A stretch of DNA of 20,000 nucleotides from an uncultured virus (IMG/VR IMGVR_UViG_3300017923_000003) (Duplodnaviria; Heunggongvirae; Uroviricota; Caudoviricetes), in IMG/VR virus record IMGVR_UViG_3300017923_000003, positions 57,544-77,543 of that record; one strand, 5' to 3'. How positions within the stretch are numbered: the first letter of the stretch is position 1; every line of letters starts with the position of its first letter. The notes beneath the pieces are model-generated. The model did not search any database. It worked only from the letters and a program-made list of their open reading frames with translations, and was not told the origin of the DNA. Positions 2 to 18,076 of this stretch are shown here, one piece after another. The position numbers and the translations under genes were made by a program.

Positions 2-3000
2 ACCCTGGTTAAATTTAATGACGAGATCCAAAAAGATTTCATAGATAAGACAACCAAATTCTATCAAGACCATATGAGTTTAATGACCGAGATAAGATCC
101 ATATTAGAAGAGAATGTTGTTATAGAAGAAAACCCAATGGGTCAAATGATGGGTGGTCAAAATAAAAACCGTGGAATGATGGACTTCATAAGAGAAGGAA
201 ACTATAAAGGTGCAGCTCAAGATGCTGGTTATAAATTATTAAATGCAATGGACCCAACAGGTTCTTTTGCTATGATGGCATCTATGGCTCCCACTTTCAT
301 GCAAGAATATATGTCAAACCCATCTATGATTTTAAAGGATGTTACTGAAGCAGGATTGAATCGTTTCTTAGGATTTGATGTTGTAGAGAAATTAGATGGG
401 CTTTTTGATCAAGCAAAAGCTGGTAAGAACTCTTTATTCAATAAGATGTCCTTATCCGATAATAAACTTGTCAAGATGTTGGGTGATACCTTAAGAGATA
501 AAGGTGATATAAACAGGGGCATCCAAACTGGCAATTATAATAAAGGTAGAACTTTCTTCGATGGTGTAACTAAAAAAGCAATAACTGAAGTTATACCAAC
601 ATACCTAAGAAAGATACTTTCAACACTTTCTGGTAATGAAGAGATGGTATTCAATTATGATACCGGTCAATATAAAGATGTGTCTGAAGTAGCAAAAGAA
701 TTTTACGATATGCGTCCAGATTTTAAAGGACAGTATGGTAGAATAACCAGTCTAGTAGAAAGTAACCTAGATAAAGACCGTGTTGGTGAAGTGGACTCAG
801 ATGCTTTAGAAGCCACAATGACAAAAATAACTGATAATCTTTTAGACCGTTCATACACTTTAGACGATATGTCGGTTATGAAATACAATAAGTTCATAAA
901 TATGATGGGTATGTCCCCAGATGAAATATCTAAATCTGAATATCAGTTAATTAGAAATGCAATAATGAAAGCCAAATCTGGAAAAGACCAAACTTCAGCC
1001 AGTGAGTTCAGAGATATCCAAAATGCAATGGGTGACTATAATGTTCAGATGTCAGATTATTATGCTGAGCAATCCCAAAGAGCTAATATGACTGGTGTTA
1101 ACACTTTAGTCGACGGTTCATTTAGATCTCAAAGTTACGGTGTAAACGGTATGGGTTCAAATGGAGAACCTCTAGCTGAAGATGATAAAAGAAAATATAA
1201 AAGTTTAAGTCAATATGACCCAACCAGAAATAGAAAAGATTTATCTGAGATGGGTAATAATTTTGACATCAATATGACAGAGGAAGATAAAAAAGTTTTA
1301 GAAGAGTCATATGATAAATTCAATACCCTTGATTATATTAATGCTTCTATGATGGGGGTTACAAATTTACCGTTCCTAGATAAAATCGGGGTAAACGACA
1401 TTAAAGAAATAAAGGAATGGAAAGATAATAACCCATATGATTTAGATAATATTATAAAATCTGGTGGACAAAGTATAGATGATATACATTCATCCTATAT
1501 GGATAACAAATTGGGACAGATTTTAACTGGTGTTAAAGATGCAACTGATGATTTTGAATCACCCAATATCAATATAGAAGATGAAAAAGATATAGAAGAT
1601 GAGGTCACAAAACAACTATCCAAAGGTGTATCCAAATTATTTTCTAAAGCAGCTGGTTCTCCCAGTTCAAATCCAGCTGTTGAAGCTCTTAAATCGGGTG
1701 GAGGATCCTCTGGTGATGACGGTTGGGATTTATTTAAAGATTATAACCCCAATGTAATGAAAGGGTTAGATTTTGGTGCTGGTGCTATGGGTGGTATCGG
1801 TATTGGTGCAATAGCTTCTACCGTTTTAACCGGTTCTCCTTTTATGGGTACTATGTTGACTTCCCTAATAGGTATTGGTTCAGGTATGATGGCAAACAAC
1901 TCTAAATTAAAAGAGAGATTATTTGGTGCCAAAAATAAAGATAAATCAATGATAACCAATATATCTGAGAAGTTTTTTGGGAAAGAGAGAACAGATAAAA
2001 TCCATAAATCAATTATGGATGCATATAAAGGTTTTAAAGACACTTTCCTAACACCAATTGGGGAGTGGCTTAAAAAACCAATAAATTGGGTTAAGGGTAA
2101 ACTCGGTATCGGGGATGATATGACAGAACCTAAAAGTGAAAATATCTCCCAAACCGACAGTGTAAATTTAGATGAAATAGATAACGAAGTAAAAAGAGAT
2201 GATGAAGGTGAAGAATACGGAGAAGGGGTAAATAGAGTTAAGGGTTTATATAGTGGTAAATCCAATAGAGCTTTATTTGGAAAAGGTATTCATTTCTTCT
2301 CACAAAAGGACGGCGATTATTCTTCTATTCCTTTAAGTGGTGGTTCAACAGTTGGTGAATCTGGTTGTGGTTTATTGACAGCTGCAATGGCTGTATCAAA
2401 TATACTTGATGTTGAAATAAAACCAGATGAACTAACAAATATAGCTAAAAAATATAAAGTCAAAAATGACGGTATATCTTTTGGTTTCTTCAGAGATGTT
2501 GGATACAGATTCGATATCTCAACTAACATATTCTCAAGAGAAGAGGTATCCCTTAAAGCATTAGATAATACCATATCAAGTGGTGCAATGGTTATCTCTT
2601 TATATGAAGATAAGTCGGGTTCCCTACATTATATATTAGTAAGAAACGGTAAGCAAAAACATTTTGCTGTAGATGATCCGATGAGAGGCAAAGGAATCGA
2701 TATACCAAAAAATCTAATATATGCTAAATCTAGAAACTTCATTGTATTCTATCCAGATACAGCATCTGAATCTAAAGAAAGAGATAATGAATTAAAAAAT
2801 TCAAAATCTATAAAGGAATTTTTCGGTGGTATGTTTAAAAAAAGTGGACTATCTAAAAAGATTTCTGATTTAGATGTCATGGGTAGTTTAAATAAATTAT
2901 CCAGTAAAGTATCAAACACCACAATGGAAAGTGTATTAAGTGATATCCAAAAGTCAGATACAGTTGTGGATATGAACGAATACAAAAAAGCTGCCGGTGG

Positions 3001-6000
3001 TGGTTCTGTACAAAAAAGAAATGAAGAGATATCAGAATCACCTATCAAAAAGTTCTCAAATAAAATAATGAGAAAACAAGAAGAACTTTTAAATGGTGTT
3101 GCATACAATATAGAATACATTAAAAGATTACTGGTTGGTCAATTTGGTGATTTGGATCCTTCACTAAGACCAGATAAAGAAGGTGTGTTCGGTGGTGTAT
3201 TCAAAAAAAGAAATGCCTTAATGTTAAAATTTAAAAATATGATGGGTAATTTCAAAGACCAATATATATCACCCATAACTGATTACTTGGGTAAGATAAA
3301 AGAGAATATAACCAAACCATTTACATTTTTAAAGAACCTACCATCAACTATCAAGGACAAAATAGATGGTCTGTTACCCTCCAAAGAGGATATCAAAAAC
3401 AAATGGAACGAATACACTGATAAATTAAAAGACTTAAGTGAAACGGTTTATCTATATGGTTTAGAATTCAAAGATAAGTTATCTGATGCAGCTAAATCTA
3501 TGAAAGAATCCGCTATAGAATTCATGAAAGATATGAAAAAGAGATCTGCCTCGGCTTGGGAAAGATGGAAAGAAGACATCTACCCATCAATTAAAGAGTC
3601 AATGGGTGAGTTTAAAGAAAGAGGAAAAGAATTCTTCACATCAGCTAAGGAACATTTAGCAAGTGGTATCTCTAAATTGTGGGGTGGAATAAAATCTGCT
3701 GGTAAGTGGGGTTTGGATAAAGCACTATCTGTTGGTAGTTTATTTTCTGATAAAGCTGGAAAGATAAAAGATAAGTTATTTTCCAAAAGGGTTCAGAAAG
3801 TATATGTTGATGGTGGTCATCTAGATGCTATTGGTGCTGTGGGTGCTATCGATGCTGATGCTTACAATGCAGCCAAAGATGATTTAGATAAAACTGAGAA
3901 TGCACAAAACCACGAAGGTAGAGATATTGATTTTGATTCTTCTACGGCTTTAACGGTTGCCGATAGACAACAGGAAATGGACATTTCAAATGAATCCAAA
4001 AGAACATCTTTACTTGGAAAAATAAAAGATAAACTCGGAAGTAAAAAAGGAAGTAAAGATGAAGGTGGGTTAATAGATGGTGTTTTACAAGAATCCATAG
4101 CTGAATTATTAGGTGGAACTGTCGGTGGTACTGTTGCCGGTGTCGCCACCAATGCTGTTGCAACTCACGGTGCTGGAGGAATATTGGCTGGTGCAGGTAT
4201 GGCAGCTTCTGGTGCGGCTGGTGCTGGTATGAGTGTCTGGGATGCCATTAAAGGTTTTATTCATGCAAGCGATATGCTTGATAAAGATGTTGATGAAACC
4301 ACATTTATAGATAAGGTGCTAACTGGTATGTCATCTGTTCTAGGTGGTACAGGTGATGGTGTATCAAATATTGTTTGGAATGCAGTTAAGTGGGGATTAA
4401 TAGGTACAGCTATAGGACCAGGGGTCGGTACAATAGCTGGTGCAGTATTGGGTGCTGGTATGGGTGCCGTAAATGGTTCAAGGATAGCTAAATTCCAAAC
4501 CGGAGTAAAAGATGCTATTTTTGGGTTTGGTAGTAAAATAACAACAAGTGTCAAAGAATTCTTTGTCGGTAATGATGGAGAAGGCGAAGATGCTAAAAAA
4601 GGTATCTTTGAGAAAATGGGTGAAAATGACGGGATAGTTGGTGCAATAAAAGGTGGTGCAGCTGGTGGTGCAATGGGTGGTCCATTGGGATTACTTATTG
4701 GTGCTGGTGTTGGTGCTTATGGTCCAGGTAAATTCTTAAAGAAAATTGCCAACCCAATTGAAACAATCGGTGATGTTGGTGGATGGATCGGTGATAAACT
4801 AATAGGTATCAAAGATGCAATCTGGGATTCTAAATTTGGCTCTTTCCTAGAAGCTGCTGGAAAAACTGCCGGTGATGTTGTAGACCAATTCATTAATGTT
4901 GACGAGATAGTCCAGGGTGTTAAAGAGAATGTGGAAGAAGCTAAATTAAAGATATCCGATACAGCTCAATCCATAAAAGATGGTTTACATGAAAAGATAG
5001 TCAAACCACTAGATGATAATATAGTAAGTCCTGTTCAAGAATCATTTACTGAATTCAAAAACAAAATAGTCGGTATAGGTGATAATGTAAAATCAAAGGT
5101 TGAAACAGCCTATGATGAATTTACCAAAAAAGTCACTGACTTGGGTGATGCCATATATGATAACACAATAGGTAAGGTTAAAGAATCATTTGAAACCATT
5201 GCTGAAAAGTTGGGCGAATTTAAAGATACAATTGTAGAGATTGTAACAAACCCTGGTGACTTTATTAAAAAGACTGCAGGTGGTTTTATAAATAGATATA
5301 CACCTAACTGGATGCAAAGTGCATACCAAAACACAACCGGGTTCTTTGGTAATATTGGAAATACATTCTCCAATGTATGGGGTGCTTTAGGAAACTTTGG
5401 TAGTTATTATGATCAAGCCGAAGCTAAAAGAGGAAGGGGTCAAACCCAACCTATTATGGGTCCAAGTGGTTACCCTGCAGCACATGGTGATGGTAGAGAT
5501 AATTTTGTTAACCAAAAATCCAATAAGTTTAAAAACTTAATGATCGGTTCTAAGAAATTCTCTAATAGTGGTTGTGCACCATCTGTATTATCAATGCTCC
5601 TTTCTAATTATGGTAAAAAGGTTCCAGTTGAAGTCCTAGCTAAAGATGCTGCACCTTACACAAGTAACGGCGGTGTTGTTATAGATTACTTTAAACACCA
5701 ATTCGAAAAACATAATTTAGAAGGAGATATGTATACTGAAAATATACCTGATCTAATGAATAATATGGCAGAAGGATCACAATCCGTGTTATTAACCAAA
5801 GCACAAAACGGAAATGACCATTATGTTCTGGTTAAAAAATCTGGTGGAAAATTGATGTTATTTGATCCACTTAAAAACAACACCAAAATGATTTCAGTAA
5901 ACGACAAAATAATAAGAGATGCTTCATTAGCTTATATGTCTCAACCTAAAATGGACCCCGAGAAGATGTTTAGTTTAAGTGATTTTAAAACCAGAGTTGG

Positions 6001-6448
6001 GGCAGGATTAGGTGCAGGTGTTGATTTATTAACTGGACAAAAAAGAGATAAGATAAAATCCATGGTCAACACACAAAGAGCAGATCAACTAAATAAGATA
6101 AGAAGTCTAAAAGACAGGGTATCTTATGGTAGGGATATCGAAAGAGAAATAAATAATACCACTTATAATAATTCCTCTAATTCTGAAACTATAAAAGACT
6201 TATCAGTTGATAATTCTAAAGTTGAAGAGAAATTAGATACTCTAATAGATGAGATTAAAAAATTGGCCGGAGTGTTCTCAACAGTAGGTAAAGAGATAGT
6301 TCAAAACTCCAACACCAATAATATAACCAGCAACAATAACACAAATAATGTTAATGCTGGTGGTAAAGATGAACAGAATTTAGACAAAAATAAAAGAGAT
6401 TCATTTATGGAAACAATCAACAAAATATCATCAGGGGTCTTAACTTAA
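2..6448 (+). CDS. Tape-measure-like giant tail protein (phiKZ gp181/AR9-type) with two C39-like peptidase domains; 5'-truncated by the window
   Basis: Frame is open from nt 2 (TLVKFNDEIQKDF...) through the 2124-aa ORF, so the start lies upstream. The motif FDGVTKKAITEVIPTYLRKIL resembles jumbo-phage tape-measure proteins. Long amphipathic helical tracts, Gly/Ala-rich hydrophobic segments and two Q..GC..H..DP modules are present. Confidence 0.8.
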   Translation, partial: TLVKFNDEIQKDFIDKTTKFYQDHMSLMTEIRSILEENVVIEENPMGQMMGGQNKNRGMMDFIREGNYKGAAQDAGYKLLNAMDPTGSFAMMASMAPTFMQEYMSNPSMILKDVTEAGLNRFLGFDVVEKLDGLFDQAKAGKNSLFNKMSLSDNKLVKMLGDTLRDKGDINRGIQTGNYNKGRTFFDGVTKKAITEVIPTYLRKILSTLSGNEEMVFNYDTGQYKDVSEVAKEFYDMRPDFKGQYGRITSLVESNLDKDRVGEVDSDALEATMTKITDNLLDRSYTLDDMSVMKYNKFINMMGMSPDEISKSEYQLIRNAIMKAKSGKDQTSASEFRDIQNAMGDYNVQMSDYYAEQSQRANMTGVNTLVDGSFRSQSYGVNGMGSNGEPLAEDDKRKYKSLSQYDPTRNRKDLSEMGNNFDINMTEEDKKVLEESYDKFNTLDYINASMMGVTNLPFLDKIGVNDIKEIKEWKDNNPYDLDNIIKSGGQSIDDIHSSYMDNKLGQILTGVKDATDDFESPNINIEDEKDIEDEVTKQLSKGVSKLFSKAAGSPSSNPAVEALKSGGGSSGDDGWDLFKDYNPNVMKGLDFGAGAMGGIGIGAIASTVLTGSPFMGTMLTSLIGIGSGMMANNSKLKERLFGAKNKDKSMITNISEKFFGKERTDKIHKSIMDAYKGFKDTFLTPIGEWLKKPINWVKGKLGIGDDMTEPKSENISQTDSVNLDEIDNEVKRDDEGEEYGEGVNRVKGLYSGKSNRALFGKGIHFFSQKDGDYSSIPLSGGSTVGESGCGLLTAAMAVSNILDVEIKPDELTNIAKKYKVKNDGISFGFFRDVGYRFDISTNIFSREEVSLKALDNTISSGAMVISLYEDKSGSLHYILVRNGKQKHFAVDDPMRGKGIDIPKNLIYAKSRNFIVFYPDTASESKERDNELKNSKSIKEFFGGMFKKSGLSKKISDLDVMGSLNKLSSKVSNTTMESVLSDIQKSDTVVDMNEYKKAAGGGSVQKRNEEISESPIKKFSNKIMRKQEELLNGVAYNIEYIKRLLVGQFGDLDPSLRPDKEGVFGGVFKKRNALMLKFKNMMGNFKDQYISPITDYLGKIKENITKPFTFLKNLPSTIKDKIDGLLPSKEDIKNKWNEYTDKLKDLSETVYLYGLEFKDKLSDAAKSMKESAIEFMKDMKKRSASAWERWKEDIYPSIKESMGEFKERGKEFFTSAKEHLASGISKLWGGIKSAGKWGLDKALSVGSLFSDKAGKIKDKLFSKRVQKVYVDGGHLDAIGAVGAIDADAYNAAKDDLDKTENAQNHEGRDIDFDSSTALTVADRQQEMDISNESKRTSLLGKIKDKLGSKKGSKDEGGLIDGVLQESIAELLGGTVGGTVAGVATNAVATHGAGGILAGAGMAASGAAGAGMSVWDAIKGFIHASDMLDKDVDETTFIDKVLTGMSSVLGGTGDGVSNIVWNAVKWGLIGTAIGPGVGTIAGAVLGAGMGAVNGSRIAKFQTGVKDAIFGFGSKITTSVKEFFVGNDGEGEDAKKGIFEKMGENDGIVGAIKGGAAGGAMGGPLGLLIGAGVGAYGPGKFLKKIANPIETIGDVGGWIGDKLIGIKDAIWDSKFGSFLEAAGKTAGDVVDQFINVDEIVQGVKENVEEAKLKISDTAQSIKDGLHEKIVKPLDDNIVSPVQESFTEFKNKIVGIGDNVKSKVETAYDEFTKKVTDLGDAIYDNTIGKVKESFETIAEKLGEFKDTIVEIVTNPGDFIKKTAGGFINRYTPNWMQSAYQNTTGFFGNIGNTFSNVWGALGNFGSYYDQAEAKRGRGQTQPIMGPSGYPAAHGDGRDNFVNQKSNKFKNLMIGSKKFSNSGCAPSVLSMLLSNYGKKVPVEVLAKDAAPYTSNGGVVIDYFKHQFEKHNLEGDMYTENIPDLMNNMAEGSQSVLLTKAQNGNDHYVLVKKSGGKLMLFDPLKNNTKMISVNDKIIRDASLAYMSQPKMDPEKMFSLSDFKTRVGAGLGAGVDLLTGQKRDKIKSMVNTQRADQLNKIRSLKDRVSYGRDIEREINNTTYNNSSNSETIKDLSVDNSKVEEKLDTLIDEIKKLAGVFSTVGKEIVQNSNTNNITSNNNTNNVNAGGKDEQNLDKNKRDSFMETINKISSGVLT
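2291..2754 (+). other. C39-like (papain-fold) cysteine peptidase domain 1 within the tape-measure protein
   Basis: FFSQKD...ESGCGLLTAAMAVS (Cys codon 2366)...LHYILV (His codon 2627)...VDDP (Asp codon 2675). Confidence 0.8.
5501..5940 (+). other. C39-like cysteine peptidase domain 2 within the tape-measure protein
   Basis: FVNQKS...NSGCAPSVLSMLLS (Cys codon 5573)...DHYVLV...LFDP. Confidence 0.8.
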
Positions 6449-7962: not shown

Positions 7963-8841
7963 TTGGTAGTTAAAATAGATGTAGATAGAATAAGATATTC
8001 AATAGATAATTATGTGCCAGCTAAAATTTCTAAAAACGATTTAATGCATGAAGATCTTTTTGATAAAAAATTATCCTTAGTTATCCCGGGTACACCTGTA
8101 AGTGATTCAAGACCTAGGGGTACTAAATCTGGACATTTCTATAACCCAAATAAAAATGCTTTAAAGAAGTTATTTAAAAAACTATATGAGGAAGATGAAC
8201 TATTATTAAACACATGTGTAACATACCCTCATATGTTGGTTTTAAGGATATATGTAGAACCAAAAAAAGCATTCGATGCAGCATTGCCTGATGAGATTTT
8301 AGAAAAAGAAAATGCTCCTGCTTTGGGTTCAAAGGATAATGATAATATAGAAAAGGTACATTGGGATATATTACAAGATGACGCTTTTAAAATAATATTA
8401 AATGACAGTTCAATAATTAAAAATTATACAGAAAAATATTATTCCAATAATCCCAGAGTAGAAATAGATGTGTTATACTCAGAAGATTATCTTTATGACT
8501 GTTATGAAAAATCAATAAAGAAATCTATGGTGTATAATAAATTTAAACTTTCTAGAAAATATATAGAAATGAAAGGTTTAGAGGGTAAGGAACTGTTTGA
8601 GCATTTTAAAAAATTCATAAAGAAACTAAAGTTCCACACATCGTATTCACATATAAAAGATAAAGCTAAAAGAAAAAATAAATGTATCGATAAAGCTGCT
8701 AAATATATCAACAGTGTTTTCTATGCAGATGAAGTCATAACCATTTTAGAAAATATAAACCCTAAACTATTGGGTGGAAAAAAATCTAAAAATGTGAATG
8801 CTCTTTCAACTTATGTTGTGGAGTCTAAAGGTAAACTATAA
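7963..8841 (+). CDS. rusA: RusA-like Holliday junction resolvase with basic C-terminal extension
   Basis: TTG start after GGAGGTG. Contains IPGTPVSDSRPR, KDNDNIEKVHWDIL (DxDNxxK...D), ILNDSSI and EKYYSNNPRVEIDV, matching RusA motifs. Confidence 0.75.
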   Translation: MVVKIDVDRIRYSIDNYVPAKISKNDLMHEDLFDKKLSLVIPGTPVSDSRPRGTKSGHFYNPNKNALKKLFKKLYEEDELLLNTCVTYPHMLVLRIYVEPKKAFDAALPDEILEKENAPALGSKDNDNIEKVHWDILQDDAFKIILNDSSIIKNYTEKYYSNNPRVEIDVLYSEDYLYDCYEKSIKKSMVYNKFKLSRKYIEMKGLEGKELFEHFKKFIKKLKFHTSYSHIKDKAKRKNKCIDKAAKYINSVFYADEVITILENINPKLLGGKKSKNVNALSTYVVESKGKL

Positions 8842-10661: not shown

Positions 10662-11768
10662 ATGGTTATTCTACAAGGGTTTTATTGGGATTGTCATAAA
10701 GACTGGTATAAAGAATTAGATGCCTTAGTTGACGCCTTATCAAAAAAAGGTTTTAAAAAAATATGGTTGCCACCACCGTCAAGAGGAATGAATGGTGATG
10801 ATTCTATGGGGTATGATATTAAAGAACACTACAACTTAAACTCCAGATTTGGCACAAAAAAAGACTTAAAAAATTTAATAAAAAATTTACAATCAAAGGG
10901 TATAGAAGTTTTAGCTGATGTGGTTATGGGACATATGGTTGGTGGAGATAGAGAACCCAATCCATCTTTATCAGATGAAAGAGTACAGGTAGAAACTTGG
11001 ACGAGATTCACCGAAAAGAGGTTTCCAAAAAACCACAAGCATTTTTGTCACAATTGTGGGAACTGTGAATCAAATAATGAATTTGGTGAGACCATTTGTT
11101 ATTATTCTGATAATGAATATATGAAAAATGGATTGATAAAATGGTGTGAATGGTTAAAAAACAATATAGGGTACGATGGTTTTAGAATAGACAATTGCAA
11201 AGATATACGTTGGGACTTCCTTAAGGAATGGAAAGAAAATTTTAATTGTTTCACCATGGGTGAGTTATGGGATGGTGACATATCCTACATAGATGATTTT
11301 AGAAACCAAACTAAAATAGACACTTTAAATTTCCCTATGTTCTATAAATTAAAAGAAATGTGTATGAACCCAGAATTTGACATGAGAAAAATATATGGTA
11401 TGAGTTATCCGGGTATGGTGAACTTTGTTTCTAATCACGACATAGGTAGAACTGAAAATGGGTACACAAAGGATATAGTCGAGAATAAAGAATTAGCCTA
11501 TGCATACATACTCTTTCAAAATGAACCAGCAGTTATTTTTTGGAAAGATTACTTCGATTATGATCTCAAAAAAAAGATCGATCCTTTAATAAAAATCAAC
11601 AATAATAGAAAAGAAAATGAATTAAATTATTTGGATTCTGATCTCTATGTTGTTACTAAAGGTGATAAAACTTTACTATTAAACAATGGTAAATCAAAAA
11701 GAGAATATGCTGGATTTGAAATAAAACCAAGATCTTACAAAATTGTAAACAAATGTGAAATACAATAA
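10662..11768 (+). CDS. Alpha-amylase, glycoside hydrolase family 13 (resembles Thermococcales-type GH13_7)
   Basis: VILQGFYWD, IWLPPPSRGM..SMGYD, SRFGT, ADVVMGH, GGDREPNP..TWTRF, GYDGFRID (D177), MGELWD (E201), FVSNHD (D260), LAYAYIL; no signal peptide. Confidence 0.9.
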   Translation: MVILQGFYWDCHKDWYKELDALVDALSKKGFKKIWLPPPSRGMNGDDSMGYDIKEHYNLNSRFGTKKDLKNLIKNLQSKGIEVLADVVMGHMVGGDREPNPSLSDERVQVETWTRFTEKRFPKNHKHFCHNCGNCESNNEFGETICYYSDNEYMKNGLIKWCEWLKNNIGYDGFRIDNCKDIRWDFLKEWKENFNCFTMGELWDGDISYIDDFRNQTKIDTLNFPMFYKLKEMCMNPEFDMRKIYGMSYPGMVNFVSNHDIGRTENGYTKDIVENKELAYAYILFQNEPAVIFWKDYFDYDLKKKIDPLIKINNNRKENELNYLDSDLYVVTKGDKTLLLNNGKSKREYAGFEIKPRSYKIVNKCEIQ

Positions 11769-11787: not shown

Positions 11788-11836
11788 GTACACTAAAGTG
11801 TATATAAAAATAATAGGAATAAGAAGGGTGGAGACA

Positions 11837-12106
11837 ATGGTTATAGTTAAATTGGGGCAAGAAAAACTACTACTATGTCATGGTGTTGAAGAACTAAAAG
11901 AAAAATTAGGGGAACCTGAAAGAGTTTTCGGTACAAGAACTTGTATAGGTAAATTCTGTAATGTCGATAGAATAGGTCCTGTCTATTTTTATGGTAAACA
12001 AAATGGGGAATCTTTGATGTGGATTAAAAACGGAAATATTGAAGCATCAAGAAAAATATCTCTTGAGGAATTAATTGAAAAATTAACCAAAAAAGGTTTT
12101 ATATAA
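11837..12106 (+). CDS. Small Cys-containing hypothetical protein (possibly thioredoxin-like Fe-S/DUF1450-like fold)
   Basis: ATG 11837 after AGGGTGGAG RBS; 89 aa; LLLCHG...CIGKFC...GP...SLEELIEKL. Confidence 0.55.
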   Translation: MVIVKLGQEKLLLCHGVEELKEKLGEPERVFGTRTCIGKFCNVDRIGPVYFYGKQNGESLMWIKNGNIEASRKISLEELIEKLTKKGFI

Positions 12107-12148
12107 AAAATAACCCAGGGTTAACCCTGGGTTTTATTTATTATTTAT
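12106..12148. terminator. Bidirectional intrinsic terminator between convergent genes
   Basis: Perfect 22-bp palindrome AACCCAGGGTTAACCCTGGGTT (12112-12133), flanked by an A-run and a T-rich run. Confidence 0.85.
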
Positions 12149-12497
12149 TAGTGAAAAATTCACTAGGTAAATTAACATAAGGGAAAGTATATCTATATCT
12201 ATCACCATAAATTAAAGGTGCAATAACCTCCCTTAAATTGCCGGTATTAGGTAACCCACCACCATTATCACCAGTAGAATCTTCTGGATCAATAACTGGA
12301 GAGGAGCCATCAAAAACTCTAAGAAAAGGATACCCATTATTTATACCTTGATATTTTTTATAAAACTTATACTGTTGCATCTGTACTGTTGTGGGGTCAG
12401 TTGCTTGAGTTATATCTCCAAAATTCACTTCAGTTTCACTTGACGATATAAAATTAGATATTTCTTCTAACATAGAAATAATCATCTCTAAATCCAT
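12141..12497 (-). CDS. Third fragment of a split GLUG-type beta-helix protein (INNGYPFL cap motif, LPNTG)
   Basis: ATG 12497 after AGAGGTG RBS; GINNGYPFLR is the motif that normally closes GLUG-type beta-helix domains. Confidence 0.6.
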   Translation of the reverse strand: MDLEMIISMLEEISNFISSSETEVNFGDITQATDPTTVQMQQYKFYKKYQGINNGYPFLRVFDGSSPVIDPEDSTGDNGGGLPNTGNLREVIAPLIYGDRYRYTFPYVNLPSEFFTNK

Positions 12498-12531
12498 TTT
12501 TATCACCTCTTATATTATCTGATTTTATATT

Positions 12532-12562
12532 AAAAACCAAAACCACTTATCTACCAAGTGGT
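12532..12562 (-). terminator. Hairpin (weak terminator or attenuator) between fragments 2 and 3
   Basis: Minus strand reads ACCACTT-GGTAGAT-AAGTGGT followed by TTTGGTTTTT. Confidence 0.45.
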
Positions 12563-12573
12563 GGGTCTGTTGG

Positions 12574-13305
12574 TCAAATCATATCTGGTATATTTTTAAA
12601 ATTTTGCAGAAGTTTCGAATAATCGTTAACTGCAATTGTTACGTTTTTTGTTGGATCAATGTTCATAAACTCTTCTTCTGTAAGATTTTCTAAATCCATT
12701 GGTTGTCCATCCAATTTAAAACTAACAACATCACCAGATAACAAACCCGGTGGGATATCACCTGGTGCATCAGGTGTATTGGGATTATTAGCCATTCCAG
12801 CCATAAAAAGCATCATCATCAAAGATCCAATGGACATTTCCATCATATCTTTTATTTCCTGCTCGTCTCCAGGTGGAAGCATACCTGTTTCAGAAAAACT
12901 ACCCATCAAAAGATCGTAGAAACCATCAAAATTCAATTCTTCAGGAGTATACCCTTCAGGTTCACCATCATCCATACCCCATGTGTTTTCAAAATCCCAT
13001 TCAACATAATTTAACATGTCCTTCATTCTCTCGTTAGTTAAAGGTGTAGCTTGTGTATCCACAAGACCAAATAAATCAGAATTGTAATAACACCTATGGG
13101 TCAATGGTCCTCCTATTGCTAAACTGGATCTAATGAGTCCTCTCATTTCATAGTATTCATCTCCAGCCAAATCGGGTTTAATTAGCCTAACAGAAACATA
13201 CGAGTTTCTTATTTTTGTTTGTGGTCCAGCAATTGTCATTCCAGCCACAAAATCATTTAATCCAGTATCTATAGCAAATGTATCTATTGGGAAATCAATT
13301 ATCAT
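12574..13305 (-). CDS. Second fragment of a split GLUG-type beta-helix protein
   Basis: GAGAGGTGA RBS; IRNSYV, RCYYNSD, LTNERMKD..NY.EWDFENTWGM match the C-terminal coils of GLUG-type domains, followed by a Met/acid-rich insertion. Confidence 0.65.
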   Translation of the reverse strand: MIIDFPIDTFAIDTGLNDFVAGMTIAGPQTKIRNSYVSVRLIKPDLAGDEYYEMRGLIRSSLAIGGPLTHRCYYNSDLFGLVDTQATPLTNERMKDMLNYVEWDFENTWGMDDGEPEGYTPEELNFDGFYDLLMGSFSETGMLPPGDEQEIKDMMEMSIGSLMMMLFMAGMANNPNTPDAPGDIPPGLLSGDVVSFKLDGQPMDLENLTEEEFMNIDPTKNVTIAVNDYSKLLQNFKNIPDMI

Positions 13306-13331
13306 TTTTATTCACCTCTCAGTTATTAAAA

Positions 13332-14486
13332 TTATACTGCTGCTGGCTGTTCTAAAATAGTAAACCTACCCTGCACATAGCTTTCATTTATTTCGATATC
13401 ATCAACATCAAGAGTTACATTTTGATCAACTGGTATAACATTTGTGATTAAACCAGCAAAATTACTCATAGAAAATATATCGCCATCGAAAACAACATTG
13501 TCTATCAATATCTTATCGTCTTGATTTTTCTTATATACGATGCTTGATAGGGGGGCAATATAGTTCCTTCCAGCAACTCTACCGGTTATTTTGATATTTT
13601 TAAAAGTGCTATTACATGACATATGTGATAACACACTAACAAAATCAACCTCTGGATGTCCTAACATACCAGGTCCAGATGAATCTAAACCAGCAATATC
13701 TACATTCTCTAAAATTAAATTTTTAATTTCAGCATTTAATAAACCCATAAATAAACTTCTCGGTGGCACTATACTATCAGTGCCATTCGGTGCAAAGTTA
13801 CCAGAAAAATTGGTTATCTGTGGGTCCTCTGCTGGATCATCTGGCAAGGTATAAATAATCTCACATCTTGAATAATTGTGTTCAAAATAAGTAAGAATAG
13901 CATCTGTTTCCAATGTGATACCACTATCACCATAAGCATCAAACTGACCAAAATAACCCTCCATCTCATCTTGCAGAGGCCAACTGTTAAATATAATTTT
14001 TGCTTCAGTTGGTCTTTCACCTATAGTATCGTCTAAAAAATAATCATTATTATTATTGTCTGTTATAAGTGTCACCGTATCTGGTGATAAAAAAGGAGAG
14101 ACTGTATCATTATCACCTAAGATACCCATGACCACCATATCAAAAAACATTTCTAAAGATATAGATAAATGCTCATCATCAGCAAATTCTCCAGTTTTAA
14201 GATCGTTTTTAACTTTCTCAAAATCCTCTAAATTATTTTTTTCAAAATAAGCACGCCACATGTCCTCTTCATAAATATATTGCCCGGACAAATTCATTAT
14301 TTTGTGACCCTGTCCATCAAGTGTTCCTTTAAAAAACCCATCTTCAGCTGTTGCTGCTTTATGATTAAAAATAGGTTCCCAATTACTTAAACCACTTAAA
14401 TCTATATCGTCGGTTAAAACGTAATCGGCTGACAAATCGTTTTTAATATCTAATAAACCTTGAACTGTATTTATTTCTATCGCCAT
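13332..14486 (-). CDS. First fragment of a GLUG-type beta-helix (surface-protein/adhesin-like) protein
   Basis: GAGAGGTGA RBS; IEINTVQGLLDIKNDLSADYVLTDDIDLS..NWEPI..FKGTLDGQGHKIMNL...SLF..AEIKNLILENVDIAG...TGRVAGRNYIAPL. Confidence 0.75.
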   Translation of the reverse strand: MAIEINTVQGLLDIKNDLSADYVLTDDIDLSGLSNWEPIFNHKAATAEDGFFKGTLDGQGHKIMNLSGQYIYEEDMWRAYFEKNNLEDFEKVKNDLKTGEFADDEHLSISLEMFFDMVVMGILGDNDTVSPFLSPDTVTLITDNNNNDYFLDDTIGERPTEAKIIFNSWPLQDEMEGYFGQFDAYGDSGITLETDAILTYFEHNYSRCEIIYTLPDDPAEDPQITNFSGNFAPNGTDSIVPPRSLFMGLLNAEIKNLILENVDIAGLDSSGPGMLGHPEVDFVSVLSHMSCNSTFKNIKITGRVAGRNYIAPLSSIVYKKNQDDKILIDNVVFDGDIFSMSNFAGLITNVIPVDQNVTLDVDDIEINESYVQGRFTILEQPAAV

Positions 14487-14510
14487 TGGTTTTCACCTCT
14501 CATTTTGTAT

Positions 14511-14522
14511 TATATTTTTGTT
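14511..14522 (-). promoter_or_regulatory. AACA-N6-TA putative late-type promoter of the beta-helix cluster
   Basis: Minus strand AACA AAAATA TA, 25 nt upstream of ATG 14486 and downstream of a terminator. Confidence 0.65.
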
Positions 14523-14554
14523 AAAATTAAATACTGTTTTTGGAATATAATAAC

Positions 14555-14585
14555 AAAAAAAAATACCCGGCTATTAACCGGGTAT
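14555..14585 (-). terminator. Intrinsic terminator (minus strand)
   Basis: ATACCCGG(14563-14570)...CCGGGTAT(14578-14585), with an A-run on + that gives a U-tail on -. Confidence 0.8.
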
Positions 14586-14590
14586 AAATA

Positions 14591-14983
14591 TTATTTTAAA
14601 GCATATTCTAAATTCTCTTCTGGTACCAAACTCCGATCAAAAACATGATACTTTGTATTATCCATTTCCAACACAACTGTATATGATTTATTATGTTCCA
14701 TAGATGATACTCTACCAGCCACTATAGAATCCGAGGCTGTTTTATTTTTTATGATACCATCTATTAATAAACCAACCTGTTTTTTTGTCAGACCTATCAT
14801 TTTAACAGGTACTTTGTAAATACAACTAAAAAGAGTGACATGTGATCTAATCAATTCATCGTGGACTACATCATTCTTTTTCAAGATGTTTAGTATCTTA
14901 TTAGACACCTCAACGATATCTTCTTTTTTAAAGTCCTCCCTTTTGTATAAATCCAAATCAAATTCAATATCCACAATTTCCAT
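14591..14983 (-). CDS. Hypothetical protein (130 aa), probable early gene
   Basis: ATG with AAGGAGAG RBS; TATATTAT-containing motif upstream. Confidence 0.7.
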   Translation of the reverse strand: MEIVDIEFDLDLYKREDFKKEDIVEVSNKILNILKKNDVVHDELIRSHVTLFSCIYKVPVKMIGLTKKQVGLLIDGIIKNKTASDSIVAGRVSSMEHNKSYTVVLEMDNTKYHVFDRSLVPEENLEYALK

Positions 14984-15029
14984 TTGAATCTCTCCTTATT
15001 TAAAATATTTTTTAATCTCTTTCAAATAA

Positions 15030-15046
15030 ATAATATATAATTATAT
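15030..15046 (-). promoter_or_regulatory. Putative early-type promoter (ATATAATTATATATTAT)
   Basis: 16/17 identical to 18372-18388; both lie upstream of small minus-strand genes; core TATATTAT resembles the phiKZ early consensus TATATTAC. Confidence 0.55.
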
Positions 15047-15234
15047 TAAGAATAGTATCTTGTCGTTTCTCTTATTTTGTTTATCGCTTTATAATACCCC
15101 AGTTGGCATAATTGCTCCTCCATTAAAGAGTCTAATCTCTCATGCATATCTTCAGGGTCATTCTTACATTCCTTTATTATGTGATCTACCTGAACTTCAA
15201 ATGACTGTGGATCTTTAATACTTGTAAAACCCAT
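15046..15234 (-). CDS. Small conserved-looking phage hypothetical protein (62 aa)
   Basis: AAGGAGAG RBS overlapping the polymerase stop; DPEDMHERLDSLM...LGY...RYYS resembles a pattern common in small phage proteins. Confidence 0.7.
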   Translation of the reverse strand: MGFTSIKDPQSFEVQVDHIIKECKNDPEDMHERLDSLMEEQLCQLGYYKAINKIRETTRYYS

Positions 15235-15246
15235 TTATATCTCTCC

Positions 15247-18060
15247 TTAGTAATTTAGTATTTTCATATATTGGTTATATACAAATTTATCTTCGTGTGG
15301 TTTCTCTATAGGTATTTCAGATCTTAATATAACATCATAAATACCATCATGTTCTGTTTCACATATCTTAACATGTAATGATTCTATTTCTCTGATACAT
15401 GGTACCATTCTTGGGTTTAGGTTGATAGTTATAATCTCACCTTTTTTATTTTTAAAATCCAACCTTCTAGATAACCTATCTGTTAATTTTAATTTACGAA
15501 CATTTTCTTCATCGACCTCACCACTGAAAATAACTGACCCATTAATATCTGGTATCTCTTTAACCTTTACCTGTTCTTCATATATATAGTTTGCAACGTT
15601 ACCTCTTCTATCTGTGTATATTGGTTCATCAATCTCAAAGACATCTGTAAGTTTCTTACCACTTTCAAGAAAGTATTCTATAACAGTACCAGTGTATCTA
15701 ATATAATTTCTCTTTTCATCACCAATGTAGAACATACCGTTTGTTTTATATAAACCAGTATCTAAATCTTTGTCATTCAACATAGATGAATCAAGTTGGG
15801 ATAAAATAGAAAGTAATGGTCTTAATTTGTTTTTAACTATCTTTACTTCATAGTCGTCATGCGAATCAACTAGACTAACTTCCTTTTGAGATATATTATT
15901 TAAGATAAAATCCAAATCAGTTAGATTCGGAAGATTAAAAAATATCTCTCCTATTTCTATAATGTTTCTTTGTATTAAAGAAATGATAGCCCTTTCACCT
16001 ATTTTTGATGTGATGTTTTTAATATAAATCTGGATTATTTCTATGGTGTGTTTTAAATCCTTTTTATCTTTATCTGGAAAAGCTTTTTCAAAGTCTTCTT
16101 TATCTATCATGGAACCATTAAAGTATTTAAATATCTTTCTTAAATTTGGTGTATCCTCTTTTTCTTCTTTAAAACCGTAATCTTCAAGAACACTCATAAT
16201 ATCGATATCTATAGATTTATTGGCAAGTTCTTTATAATCAAAATATTTGATAGCCCTATACATTTTAAGAAACTTATTTCTTTGGAACTTATTATTATTT
16301 GATTTAGAACGCATCTTTTTAATAGCTGCCCAATCATCCCTACTTATTATCAACCTACCATTTACTGTTTTAGTTTCTTTATAAACTAAGTCATGAAATT
16401 CATCTATCCATATTAACTTACCAACCAAAGTTGTCTTAGTTATATTGTGGGATATCAAATTATTAGGATACATAGAAGATGCATCTGCATCAATTACTGT
16501 TTCAAATACTTTCTTATTATTTAATAGTGGTAAAAGTTTTATCCCTTTTCTTGTAACTTTATTTGGGTCAGTACATAAACCACCCTGGATTCTATCACCA
16601 TTTTTAATAGACATAATAATATCATAGGTTACTCTGTCTTCTTCCTTTAGGATCTCTACCTGTTTATCGGACAACTTTAAAAGAAGTTTATTAACTTCAT
16701 TAGAGAGTATCTGACCATTTCTTTCTCCCATATGGAAAAAAGCATTCATAACTTGAGCCATAGAAGTAAAAAGCTGATCGTATTCTGTTCTTGTTGTAAA
16801 CCGTTTAGATACCATTGTCTTAGTATCTTGTGTAACATCCTCTATAAATGGCATAACCAAAACATCACGAATGTTGTATTTAGTTGTGGTATAAAAATCT
16901 CTATAAGGTAAATCACCAATGTGGTCACAGATATGAGAATAGTCTAGTTTACCAACACCAAGATTATCTTTAGCAACAGTATCTAACTTATAACTTGTAA
17001 AAGATGATGCACCCCTTATAGCATGATAGGTTATAAACATATCCATTATCTTGGTATAAGATGCACATTCATAGTTATGCTTTCTATCCTCTGGTGGGAA
17101 GGTGTTATCTCTAATTCTAAAGTCAACATAATCTCCGACATCAGGGTGGCAGAAAATGCTAGATGGTTTGATATTTAATTTATCACAACGGTTTAGAGTT
17201 TGTCCTATATCTGCACTGGTGTTATATGCATATAGAAAATCAGGCATATAGTCTCTAATTATCATTTTATAAAAATCACGAATCATTCTCTGTTCACTAC
17301 CATAGGATTTAAGTTCGTATTTAATATTATCTAATCTTTTAAATATCGTCTCTTTTACCTGCTGTTCTTCTTTGGCATTTTTTAAAGATAGTTTACTAAA
17401 ATCTTCTTTAAGTTCTTTTTTCAATTCTTTAATAAATTTCTTATGACCCTTATCTTTAAGAAGTTTATCCTGATATTTATAATTCTTATCTTCAAGATAA
17501 AATGTATGACAAACATTCTCTTTAGAATCAAAATATGTCATAAGATAAATAGGATAATCAGCTTCATCATCACTATCAACTCTGATATCCCACTCAAGGT
17601 CAAAAAAGCCTATGTGTAGATTTTTAATTGGTGGTTCATCAGGGTAAGTCATATTACCTTCTTTATCTTCTTTACCCATTGAATCAAGATAGTCCATGAT
17701 GGTTCTATCTGTCAATCTAACATCAGCTCCGAATAATCTTTTATCTAAATAAATCTGCTCTTTTTTAATATGCTTTTTTCTTACATCGTTAGTAAAGCCG
17801 TCATAACCTATTAACCTTGCAAGGTCCCATTCTCTCCATCTATATGAGACATCGTGTTTTTCAAGGTCTTCTACATCACGATACTCCATAAAATAATCTG
17901 GTACTTCAACATTATCTTTAACTTTATATATAGGTATAGTTGGATTATTTATTTTATAAACTTTCTTTTCATCAGTCTCTACATTCTTCATTAATATATG
18001 GTGTCTATTTTTATTTCTATCAAAATAGTTATTAAGCAGTAACATATTTTCATTGCTCAC
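15247..18060 (-). CDS. Family B DNA polymerase, N-terminal subunit (3'-5' exonuclease + motif A) of a split enzyme
   Basis: ExoI IGFFDLEWD, ExoII YAYNTSAD, SYKLDTVAK..LG..KLDY, ExoIII YNIRDV, IQGGLC.DP, motif A DADASSMYPN..ISHNI..TT. No KxxxNSxYG or YGDTDS. GTG 18060 is preferred as start because it is 8 nt from GGGGAG. Confidence 0.85.
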   Translation of the reverse strand: MSNENMLLLNNYFDRNKNRHHILMKNVETDEKKVYKINNPTIPIYKVKDNVEVPDYFMEYRDVEDLEKHDVSYRWREWDLARLIGYDGFTNDVRKKHIKKEQIYLDKRLFGADVRLTDRTIMDYLDSMGKEDKEGNMTYPDEPPIKNLHIGFFDLEWDIRVDSDDEADYPIYLMTYFDSKENVCHTFYLEDKNYKYQDKLLKDKGHKKFIKELKKELKEDFSKLSLKNAKEEQQVKETIFKRLDNIKYELKSYGSEQRMIRDFYKMIIRDYMPDFLYAYNTSADIGQTLNRCDKLNIKPSSIFCHPDVGDYVDFRIRDNTFPPEDRKHNYECASYTKIMDMFITYHAIRGASSFTSYKLDTVAKDNLGVGKLDYSHICDHIGDLPYRDFYTTTKYNIRDVLVMPFIEDVTQDTKTMVSKRFTTRTEYDQLFTSMAQVMNAFFHMGERNGQILSNEVNKLLLKLSDKQVEILKEEDRVTYDIIMSIKNGDRIQGGLCTDPNKVTRKGIKLLPLLNNKKVFETVIDADASSMYPNNLISHNITKTTLVGKLIWIDEFHDLVYKETKTVNGRLIISRDDWAAIKKMRSKSNNNKFQRNKFLKMYRAIKYFDYKELANKSIDIDIMSVLEDYGFKEEKEDTPNLRKIFKYFNGSMIDKEDFEKAFPDKDKKDLKHTIEIIQIYIKNITSKIGERAIISLIQRNIIEIGEIFFNLPNLTDLDFILNNISQKEVSLVDSHDDYEVKIVKNKLRPLLSILSQLDSSMLNDKDLDTGLYKTNGMFYIGDEKRNYIRYTGTVIEYFLESGKKLTDVFEIDEPIYTDRRGNVANYIYEEQVKVKEIPDINGSVIFSGEVDEENVRKLKLTDRLSRRLDFKNKKGEIITINLNPRMVPCIREIESLHVKICETEHDGIYDVILRSEIPIEKPHEDKFVYNQYMKILNY

Positions 18061-18076
18061 TGTATTCACTCCCCTT

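What the first reader, a model, noticed from the sequence alone, without database searches (positions are those of the whole stretch)
12141..14486. One GLUG-type beta-helix protein split over three separately translated genes
Seen: the ordered motifs of a single GLUG-type beta-helix are distributed colinearly. Gene 1 has the N-cap and first coils (YVLTDDIDLS, FKGTLDGQGHKIMNL, IKNLILENVDI). Gene 2 has later coils and WDFENTWGM (12976-12999). Gene 3 has INNGYPFL (12321-12344), which usually follows WDF..W within a few residues. Adjacent genes are in different frames, each has a strong AGAGGTGA RBS, and the frames of genes 2 and 3 are closed just upstream. The cluster has its own AACA promoter and flanking terminators. 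Inference: a maintained heterotrimeric, self-complementing beta-helix (possibly a virion adhesin or decoration) rather than a decaying pseudogene.
Basis: partly seen in the sequence, partly recalled or inferred. Interest (0 to 1): 0.8.

Follow-up and report, generated by a model that had tools for sequence, protein, structure and literature searches.

The report
Phage beta-helix split over two genes
In a large uncultured phage, one rod-shaped beta-helix domain that is normally made as a single protein is encoded as two neighbouring, separately translated genes that have been kept that way in a distant relative; the third small gene is probably not the missing end piece.

Summary
A profile I built from 81 single-chain modules of this family shows real colinearity. 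Gene 1 (384 aa) covers the N-cap and first coils, profile positions 26-184. Gene 2 (243 aa) covers the last coils and the WDF C-cap, positions 201-287.

The split looks maintained, not decaying:
- A relative 41-51% identical ends its gene-1 homologue at the same alignment column.
- Gene 2's own tail is conserved in that relative.
- Gene 1 has dN/dS of about 0.14.
- Each gene has an AGAGGTGA site and an ATG.
- An assembly from another study carries the same three frames without indels.

The three-part reading is not supported. Gene 2 already has its own "GY(T)PEEL" at the position of the canonical GYPxL. Gene 3's 30-67 looks like a second, degenerate C-cap with the WDF hairpin deleted (hhalign 55%). 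Gene 3 has no detectable homologue, and a terminator-like hairpin separates it from gene 2.

No Pfam GLUG hit was obtained. Family assignment rests on profiles and on a model matching PDB 3N6Z (Z 19.1). Physical association is untested because co-folding was unavailable. Function, probably adhesin-like, is inferred.

The parts
13332..14486 (-). Gene 1 (384 aa): the N-terminal about two thirds of the beta-helix module
   Evidence: ORF. Own module HMM, whole protein E 6e-23. AF2 model matches PDB 3N6Z at Z 19.1, rmsd 2.1 A, 185 residues aligned. dN/dS 0.14 against L002.
14286..14480 (-). g1 residues 3-67: N-cap (helix, Y.LTDDIDLS, F.GTLDGQGHKI.NL)
   Evidence: Profile positions 26-83, E 4.4e-17. 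phrog_30905 E 6.9e-11. pLDDT 91-99.
13767..14285 (-). g1 residues 68-240: lineage-specific insertion of about 175 aa between the N-cap and the first coil
   Evidence: Absent from relatives P0153/P0002 and from all 53 family segments in A3. pLDDT mostly 30-74. No family found.
13335..13766 (-). g1 residues 241-384: beta-helix coils ending in an uncapped rung
   Evidence: Profile positions 94-184, E 9e-8. Strands with pLDDT 83-99, last 10 residues 47. The C-terminus is at the same alignment column as P0153.
13306..13331 (-). 26-nt g1-g2 spacer with AGAGGTGA (13319-13312). The TGA of that motif closes the g2 frame.
   Evidence: Sequence read. Octamer census. No difference from L002.
12943..13305 (-). 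g2 residues 1-121: the last coils plus a complete C-cap (TQATPLTNERMKDMLNYVEWDFENTWGMDDGEPEGYTPEEL)
   Evidence: Profile positions 201-287, E 8.4e-18. C-cap HMM E 2e-19. 179 library hits, mostly multi-module proteins; 8 of 12 scanned carry Pfam GLUG. 'GYT-PEEL' aligns with 'GY-PyL'.
12577..12942 (-). g2 residues 122-243: private tail with two helices (the second Met-rich and hydrophobic) and a small beta domain
   Evidence: AF2 gives H126-140, H148-172 and strands at 194-226 with pLDDT about 83-86. Conserved only in P0008, which aligns to g2 71-235. KD19 maximum 1.46 at residues 154-172.
12498..12573 (-). 76-nt g2-g3 spacer: terminator-like hairpin 12562-12542 with a U-tract, then AGAGGTGA at 12510-12503
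   Evidence: -13.6 kcal/mol, z -1.97..
12141..12497 (-). Gene 3 (118 aa): a real but orphan gene. Residues 30-67 resemble a second C-cap that lacks the WDFxxxW hairpin.
   Evidence: Codon-usage score is 0.30 bits per codon in frame, against -0.06 or lower in the other five frames. C-cap HMM 7.9 bits; 2 of 2000 shuffles reach it. hhalign probability 54.6%, E 1.2e-4. No homologues. Atlas pLDDT 0.38.
14563..14585 (-). Upstream terminator-like hairpin, ending the preceding gene's transcript
   Evidence: -14.1 kcal/mol, z -3.5.
12112..12133 (.). Bidirectional terminator-like hairpin after g3, shared with the convergent plus-strand genes
   Evidence: -16.5 kcal/mol.
14493..14514 (-). TATAAT (14514-14509) and the g1 AGAGGTGA (14500-14493). 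No recognisable -35 element.
   Evidence: No promoter-like site was listed here.

Best explanation
Genes 1 and 2 are the two halves of one 3N6Z-like (GLUG-family) right-handed beta-helix module. The module was divided at a coil boundary, and both halves are kept as working genes.

Shown:
- g1 carries the N-cap, a private 175-aa insertion and the first coils, and it ends without a cap.
- g2 begins with coils, has no N-cap, and carries the complete C-cap plus a private 120-aa tail.
- The two genes lie 26 nt apart in different frames.
- Each has the same strong Shine-Dalgarno octamer and an ATG.
- The arrangement is conserved and under purifying selection.

Inferred:
- Both are translated from one transcript that starts upstream of g1.
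- The open last rung of g1 stacks on the first rung of g2, so a continuous, doubly capped helix forms from two chains. This would be fold complementation, as in other naturally split phage proteins.
- The assembled rod displays the g1 insertion and the g2 tail as its working parts. It most likely acts as a non-enzymatic binding (adhesin-like) module, possibly on the virion.

Gene 3 is a real, co-located orphan gene. It contains a degenerate second copy of the C-cap. It is not required to complete the helix, and its role is open.
For: Colinear profile coverage by g1 (positions 26-184) and g2 (201-287) of a 304-position HMM built from 81 single-chain modules.

The same colinearity holds against an intact 360-aa paralogue in the complete relative genome: g1 aligns to paralogue 28-155 and g2 to 163-290.

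The g1 model aligns to 3N6Z residues 66-268 only (Z 19.1). The A4 alignment that contains g2 gives a profile matching 3N6Z through its C-cap at 340-359.

The stop of g1 is conserved. P0153 and P0002 (51% identity in the alignment, 41% by BLAST) end at the same column. P0153 and the g2 homologue P0008 each sit on a single Logan contig of 19,590 nt. P0008 shares g2's private tail.

g1 shows 30 synonymous against 18 non-synonymous differences, dN/dS 0.14.

There are no indels in g1-g3 in L002/L003 or in a contig from another study (X7: 59 substitutions, with its only indel at 14555, outside the genes).

Three of the 7 AGAGGTGA octamers in 77.5 kb are these start sites.

For contrast, the two clear frameshift-type breaks among 164 C-cap modules in 144 loci (L100, L153) have overlapping frames. 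In the junction sequences printed, I read no ATG at the head of the downstream frame.
Against: No physical evidence that the chains bind.

Many complete family members lack the WDF C-cap. For example, the ORFs of 400-490 aa in L010-L012 and L044-L049 have profile coverage ending near position 235. g1 could therefore be self-sufficient.

Pfam GLUG and Peptidase_M26_N do not hit g1 or g2.

g2 modelled alone gave only pLDDT 31-70 over residues 1-70 and no fold match. This is uninformative either way.

P0008 as called starts at g2 residue ~66. The relative's downstream half therefore differs by two coils or was mis-called, and adjacency of P0153 and P0008 is inferred from equal contig length only.

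The purifying-selection estimate rests on a single pairwise comparison. g2 and g3 have 1 and 0 differences, so they carry no dN/dS signal.
Confidence: 0.6

Rival explanations
1. One reading: all three proteins are parts of one helix, forming a heterotrimer. g3 supplies the terminal GYPFL strand that should follow g2's WDFxxxW.
For: g3 lies directly downstream with the same AGAGGTGA start signal. It has a canonical-looking NNGYPFLRVF. It scores second only to g2 among 530 ORF segments of the record against the C-cap HMM (E 0.095). g2 and g3 together are almost identical to the relative (1 difference in 1,165 nt) while the flanks differ by 8-9%, so they travel together.
Against: g2 already has GY(T)PEEL at the canonical offset, and P0008 has DFTPEE there. 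g3 aligns to profile positions that g2 already fills, including the helix (T.P.TT.QMQQ), so it is a duplicate and not a continuation. About 120 residues of g2 tail and 50 residues of g3 lie between the two motifs. No g3 homologue was found in either length class searched (near or longer), whereas g1 and g2 homologues were found. A terminator-like hairpin lies between g2 and g3.
Confidence: 0.15
2. Independent proteins. g1 is a self-sufficient beta-helix without a C-cap, as in many relatives. g2 is a separate protein whose short helix stub and C-cap merely form the base for its own tail domain. They share ancestry but do not assemble.
For: Complete ORFs of this family without a C-cap are common in the 65 metagenome loci. 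g1 folds confidently on its own in silico, with coils at pLDDT 83-99. The relative's g2 homologue as called (P0008) has almost no coils, only the last strand and the cap.
Against: g2 starts with about two coils and has no N-cap, which would leave an exposed hydrophobic rung. In 139 of 164 C-cap modules the N-cap is in the same ORF, and most of the rest are cut by locus ends. Tight spacing, matched start signals and a conserved g1 end point all suggest co-evolution.
Confidence: 0.17
3. Decaying pseudogene or assembly artefact: a recent frameshift broke one gene and the pieces are drifting.
For: Frameshift-type breaks of such modules do occur in MAGs (L100, L153). Pfam GLUG motifs are no longer detectable in the coils.
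Against: The same three frames appear in L002/L003, which are identical to each other, and in a contig from another study. g2 and g3 were seen on 8 contigs each in the protein collection. The stop column is conserved at 41-51% identity. dN/dS is 0.14. The spacer does not overlap either gene and holds a consensus SD and an ATG. g3's codon usage is gene-like.
Confidence: 0.05

Closest known systems
PDB 3N6Z, BACOVA_03286 'putative immunoglobulin A1 protease' of Bacteroides ovatus (single-chain beta-helix module)
   Same: Same fold and same order of parts: N-cap, coils, then a C-cap ending W...W..GYPIF. The g1 model aligns at Z 19.1, rmsd 2.1 A, 185 residues. The profile of alignment A4, which contains g2, matches it at E 4.7e-22.
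   Different: 3N6Z is one polypeptide. Here residues equivalent to about 66-268 are in g1 and the rest, with the C-cap, is in g2. g1 has a 175-aa insertion and g2 a 120-aa tail that 3N6Z lacks.
Beta-helix domain of streptococcal and Gemella IgA1 proteases (PDB 6XJA, 6XJB, 7JGJ, 7UVK, 7UVL; Pfam Peptidase_M26_N / GLUG region)
   Same: Same beta-helix architecture (Z 15.2-17.5). The A4 profile hits them at E 8e-12 to 7e-10.
   Different: Those are domains of 1,300-2,200-residue secreted metalloproteases. No protease domain is present here, and Pfam PF05342 and PF07581 do not hit g1-g3.
Intact 360-aa paralogue in the complete relative genome (L075:1465-2547, record G001)
   Same: Same phage lineage and same module. 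It is colinear with g1 (paralogue 28-155) and g2 (163-290).
   Different: It is a single chain and only 24-37% identical locally. It lies between a tail-sheath gene (phrog_15433, E 9e-100) and a virion structural protein. The split pair lies about 10 kb away, beside the DNA polymerase.
'Genes in pieces' of T4-like phages (e.g. Aeh1 nrdA split by mobE; T4 topoisomerase genes 39/60)
   Same: A phage protein encoded as separate, adjacent polypeptides that reassemble into a functional whole.
   Different: Those splits are caused by, and still contain, a homing-endonuclease gene or insertion. Here the spacers are 26 and 76 nt with no ORF. The details of these examples are recalled. Of the review PMC2988022 I saw only the search listing.
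   Same: Same module family, a phage, and a split between two turns of the helix (an unchecked AI note).
   Different: Different DNA (no look-alike by sequence). That split holds a 2-kb cassette, whereas this one is a bare 26-nt spacer with a start signal.

Membership tests
3N6Z-like beta-helix module (the module that usually carries Pfam GLUG motifs) | N-cap: helix + Y.L..DIDL + F.G.fDG.Gh.I.nL | tested here: met
   g1 3-67 matches profile 26-83 at E 4.4e-17. phrog_30905 E 6.9e-11.
3N6Z-like beta-helix module (the module that usually carries Pfam GLUG motifs) | Right-handed beta-helix coils | tested here: met
   For g1 only, and on a predicted model: coils at pLDDT 83-99, 3N6Z Z 19.1 and IgA1 proteases Z 15-17.5. 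The g2 coils were modelled poorly.
3N6Z-like beta-helix module (the module that usually carries Pfam GLUG motifs) | C-cap: T..eMk helix + WDFxxxW + GYPxL | tested here: met
   g2 68-119 matches the C-cap HMM at E 4.5e-19. GYT-PEEL aligns with GY-PyL.
3N6Z-like beta-helix module (the module that usually carries Pfam GLUG motifs) | All parts in one polypeptide | tested here: not met
   The parts are divided between g1 and g2. In 139 of 164 C-cap modules in 144 loci, the N-cap is in the same ORF.
Pfam PF07581 (GLUG motif) | Hit at or above the gathering score of 20.5 bits | tested here: not met
   No GLUG hit for g1, g2 or g3 even at E up to 1. 8 of 12 g2 homologues scanned do carry it.
Pfam PF05342 (Peptidase_M26_N) / IgA1 protease | Family HMM hit and an M26 metalloprotease domain | tested here: not met
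   No hit. No protease domain in any of the three proteins.
Homing-endonuclease 'genes in pieces' | Mobile endonuclease gene or cassette between the pieces | tested here: not met
   The spacers are 26 and 76 nt and hold no ORF.
Programmed frameshift or readthrough fusion | Downstream frame open across the junction | tested here: not met
   The g2 frame is closed by TGA 13314-13312 and the g3 frame by TAA 12512-12510. Reading g2's TGA stop through adds 9 codons and then hits TAA (sequence).
Obligate two-chain (self-complementing) protein | The chains bind and fold only together | not testable with these tools

The most novel reading that the evidence does not exclude
g1 is a common 'socket': an N-capped helix with an open last rung that can be closed by either of two alternative plug proteins encoded downstream. 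The plugs would be g2 (coils, full C-cap and a tail domain) and g3 (N-terminal helix, minimal C-cap and a different tail). This would give two rods with different tips from one base. The hairpin between g2 and g3 would set their ratio. It would be a natural, exchangeable-cap beta-solenoid system.
Probability: 0.1. Interest if true: 0.75.

Novelty: new variant of a known kind. Interest (0 to 1): 0.45.

Why it matters
Beta-helices are usually treated as single cooperative folding units whose ends need caps. A natural, conserved case would be a ready-made system for studying how solenoids nucleate, elongate and are capped across chains. Here one chain brings the N-cap and the other the C-cap, with a clean 26-nt spacer and matched start signals. 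It could also serve as a template for split, modular display scaffolds.

The case also warns annotators. Neither half hits Pfam GLUG, and each half alone looks like an orphan. For phage biology the stakes are modest until a function such as host binding or virion decoration is shown.

Tried and rejected
No binding test was made.
- Pfam on the three proteins gave nothing relevant.
- tblastn against 50,697 phage records gave one N-cap-only match for g1 and none for g2.
- IMG/VR scans with g1, g2 and the alignments A1 and A2 found only the two near-identical contigs.
- The metagenome scan with A1 gave 65 loci that all match only the N-cap. No P0153-like relative appeared.
- The GTDB scan with A2 gave 79 loci with generic C-caps. 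None covers g2's tail.
- g3 homologue searches, near and longer lengths, found nothing. The ESM Atlas gave no usable hit for g3 or for the g1 insertion. phmmer against PDB chains with g1, g2 and g3 singly gave only chance-level rows.
- Foldseek on the g2 model gave no match at E of 0.001 or better.
- No RNA holder was listed among the sequencing runs. In run X10 the low-depth fragments of a more diverged relative do not bridge either junction, and X9 covers only parts.
- Alternative genetic code or readthrough was rejected. The other long ORFs read well in table 11, and g2's TGA read through meets TAA after 9 codons.
- Programmed frameshift was rejected because the frames are closed.
- A sigma-70 promoter upstream of g1 was not found by the scan.
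- Literature searches found no description of a split GLUG or beta-helix module in phages: 'GLUG' + 'beta-helix' + 'phage' (0 papers), 'GLUG motif' (2 papers), split-gene tail-fibre terms, 'beta-helix' + 'split into two' + 'adjacent genes' + 'phage', and 'Peptidase_M26_N' + 'phage'. Subscription journals are outside that library.
Full report
**Setting.** The window is the last 20 kb of a 77.5-kb IMG/VR virus record estimated 37% complete. Two contigs of 194.6 and 146 kb, identical to each other over the locus, carry the same region at about 96% nucleotide identity. The 194.6-kb record is rated 100% complete.

Neighbouring genes in the window are a DNA polymerase (phrog_3011), a RusA-like resolvase, a virion structural protein, a protein of more than 2,100 aa with tape-measure-like and Peptidase C39 regions, and a GH13 alpha-amylase-like gene. 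The nearest cultured relatives by polymerase are 174-180 kb Fusobacterium phages, at 37% identity over 58% of the protein. Runs that hold the stretch are labelled subsurface and shale-gas metagenomes.

**The observation.** Three minus-strand genes are present as described:

| Gene | Coordinates | Length |
|---|---|---|
| g1 | 14486..13332 | 384 aa |
| g2 | 13305..12574 | 243 aa |
| g3 | 12497..12141 | 118 aa |

- All quoted peptide motifs are at the stated places.
- The genes are in different frames. The g2 frame is closed by a TGA three codons before its ATG, and the g3 frame by a TAA five codons before its ATG.
- Each ATG is preceded at 5-6 nt by AGAGGTGA. That octamer occurs only seven times on both strands of the 77.5-kb record. 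Four of the seven precede an ORF of 40 aa or more, and three of those four are g1, g2 and g3.
- Terminator-like hairpins flank the cluster, at -14.1 and -16.5 kcal/mol. A third one, at -13.6 kcal/mol with a U-tract, lies between g2 and g3.
- The proposed promoter is not supported by the sigma-70 scan. Only a TATAAT at 14514-14509 is there.

**Family.**
- Pfam gives no relevant hit for any of the three proteins, not even the GLUG motif at E up to 1.
- PHROGs places g1 residues 1-67 in phrog_30905, of unknown function.
- An exhaustive HMMER search with g2 returned 179 proteins at E of 0.001 or better. Nearly all are large proteins that match g2 residues ~15-120 several times each.
- Of 12 of these scanned, 8 carry Pfam GLUG.
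- In the 149 listed hits, 144 contain W[DNE]FxxxW. The motif occurs 411 times.

From these proteins I cut 81 whole modules, each running from one C-cap to the next, and built a 304-position HMM. Against it:

| Protein segment | Profile positions | Part | E-value |
|---|---|---|---|
| g1 3-67 | 26-83 | N-cap | 4e-17 |
| g1 245-355 | 94-184 | coils | 9e-8 |
| g2 21-115 | 201-287 | last coils and C-cap | 8e-18 |

No other ORF segment of the 77.5-kb record scores. g1 and g2 together therefore make exactly one module, in order.

**Structure.**
- With a 55-row alignment, AlphaFold2 models the g1 N-cap (pLDDT 91-99) and coils 241-380 (83-99) confidently. The 175-residue insertion at 68-240 stays poorly modelled.
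- VIA-align puts PDB 3N6Z first (Z 19.1, rmsd 2.1 A, 185 residues), followed by IgA1 protease beta-helix domains (Z 15.2-17.5), well above pectate lyases and tailspikes (about 8-10).
- The g1 model aligns to residues 66-268 of 3N6Z only. The rest of that chain, including its C-cap, is matched by the profile of alignment A4, which contains g2 (E 4.7e-22).
- g2 modelled alone is weak over its first 70 residues (pLDDT 31-70) and finds no fold match. This does not decide anything.
- The g2 tail is modelled as two helices and a small beta domain.

**Is the split maintained?** Several independent lines say yes.

1. The only specific relatives of g1 are P0002 and P0153 (217 and 233 aa; 41% identity by BLAST, 51% in the alignment). 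They lack the insertion and end at the same alignment column as g1.
2. The only specific relative of g2 is P0008 (187 aa). It shares g2's C-cap variant (WDFENIW...DFTPEE) and its private tail at 36-38% identity. P0153 and P0008 each occur on one Logan contig of 19,590 nt, most likely the same contig. As called, P0008 starts at g2 residue ~66. Either the relative's helix is two coils shorter or the start was mis-called. I could not read that DNA.
3. Between the window and L002, g1 has 30 synonymous and 18 non-synonymous differences (dN 0.020, dS 0.142, ratio 0.14) and no indel.
4. A 6,333-nt contig from a different study spans the whole locus with 59 substitutions. Its single indel is at 14555, upstream of g1.
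5. Real frameshift breaks look different. Among 164 C-cap modules in 144 loci, 139 have their N-cap in the same ORF, 18 are cut by locus ends and 7 are internal. The two clear breaks (L100, L153) have overlapping frames, and in their printed junction sequences I read no ATG at the head of the downstream frame.

**Gene 3.**
- It is a real gene by codon usage: 0.30 bits per codon in frame against -0.06 or lower elsewhere, like its neighbours.
- It is not the missing end of g2's cap. In the 29-row alignment, g2's EGYT-PEEL lines up with the canonical nGY-PyL, and its P121 falls in a column conserved in at least 90% of rows.
- g3 residues 30-67 align to the helix and the GYPxL of the cap, with the nine WDFxxxW-hairpin positions deleted. 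The support is modest: C-cap HMM 7.9 bits with 2 of 2000 shuffles reaching it, and hhalign probability 54.6%, E 1.2e-4. g3 therefore overlaps what g2 already has.
- g3 has no homologue at near or longer lengths, and its Atlas model has pLDDT 0.38.
- g2 and g3 together differ from the relative at 1 of 1,165 positions. g1 differs at 4.2% and the flanks at 8-9%. g2 and g3 thus travel as a block, but this is no evidence of binding.

**An intact comparator.** The complete relative genome carries, about 10 kb away, a 360-aa single-chain module with N-cap, coils and C-cap. It lies between a tail-sheath gene (E 9e-100) and a virion structural protein. It is colinear with g1 and then g2 but only distantly similar. 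This is the only hint that such modules are virion-associated in this lineage.

**Mechanism and odds.** I consider it about 90% likely that g1 and g2 descend from one module. I put about 75% on the split being maintained by selection, and about 60% on the two chains forming one continuous helix by rung stacking. g3 as a third subunit gets about 15%. Adhesin-like function follows from the family's known members. The J Bacteriol 2022 adhesin survey, PMC9210967, of which I read two passages, describes such models as resembling carbohydrate-binding pectate-lyase-like adhesive domains. This function is untested here.

**Novelty.** My searches found no paper describing a split module of this family. 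The phenomenon may therefore recur in a different form. I rate this a new variant of a known kind, of moderate interest.

Noticed in passing
window 74-6448 (+), open at the 5' end from base 2: A protein of at least 2,124 aa combines a tape-measure-like region (phrog_167, E 7e-6) with a Peptidase C39 domain at residues 1830-1939 (PF03412, E 1.5e-12).
   Followed up: no
window 10662-11768 (+): A phage-encoded GH13 alpha-amylase catalytic domain (PF00128, E 9e-19) with no PHROG match. It is convergent with the split cluster.
   Followed up: no
window 15247-18069 (-): The 940-aa DNA polymerase matches Fusobacterium phage JD-Fnp polymerases only over residues 10-552 (37% identity). The C-terminal ~390 aa have no match in the phage collection.
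   Followed up: no
window 11800-15100 versus L002: Mosaic divergence. g2, the spacer and g3 together show 1 difference in 1,165 nt. g1 shows 48 in 1,155, clustered in codons 273-346. The flanks differ by 8-9%. This suggests a recent recombination tract covering g2-g3.
   Followed up: partly
window 13767-14285 (g1 residues 68-240): An insertion of about 175 aa between the N-cap and the first coil. It is absent from the 41-51% identical relative and from all 53 family segments aligned. It is poorly modelled and has no family.
   Followed up: partly
window 12790-12846 (g2 residues 154-172): A Met-rich hydrophobic helix (MMEMSIGSLMMMLFMAGMA, KD19 1.46). The matching stretch of P0008 is also hydrophobic (1.34). 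It is below the usual transmembrane threshold, so it could be a membrane-interacting or oligomerising helix.
   Followed up: partly
L075:1465-2547 (record G001, outside the window's record): An intact single-chain 360-aa module of the same family, lying between a tail-sheath gene and a virion structural protein in the complete relative genome.
   Followed up: partly
L100:1119-2745 and L153:789-2112: Two MAG loci where a module is broken by a simple frameshift. The frames overlap and no ATG is seen at the head of the downstream frame in the printed junctions. They are useful as a picture of what decay or assembly error looks like.
   Followed up: partly
window 7963-8841 (+): The RusA domain (PF05866, residues 42-170) sits in a 292-aa protein, leaving about 120 C-terminal residues without any family hit.
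   Followed up: no
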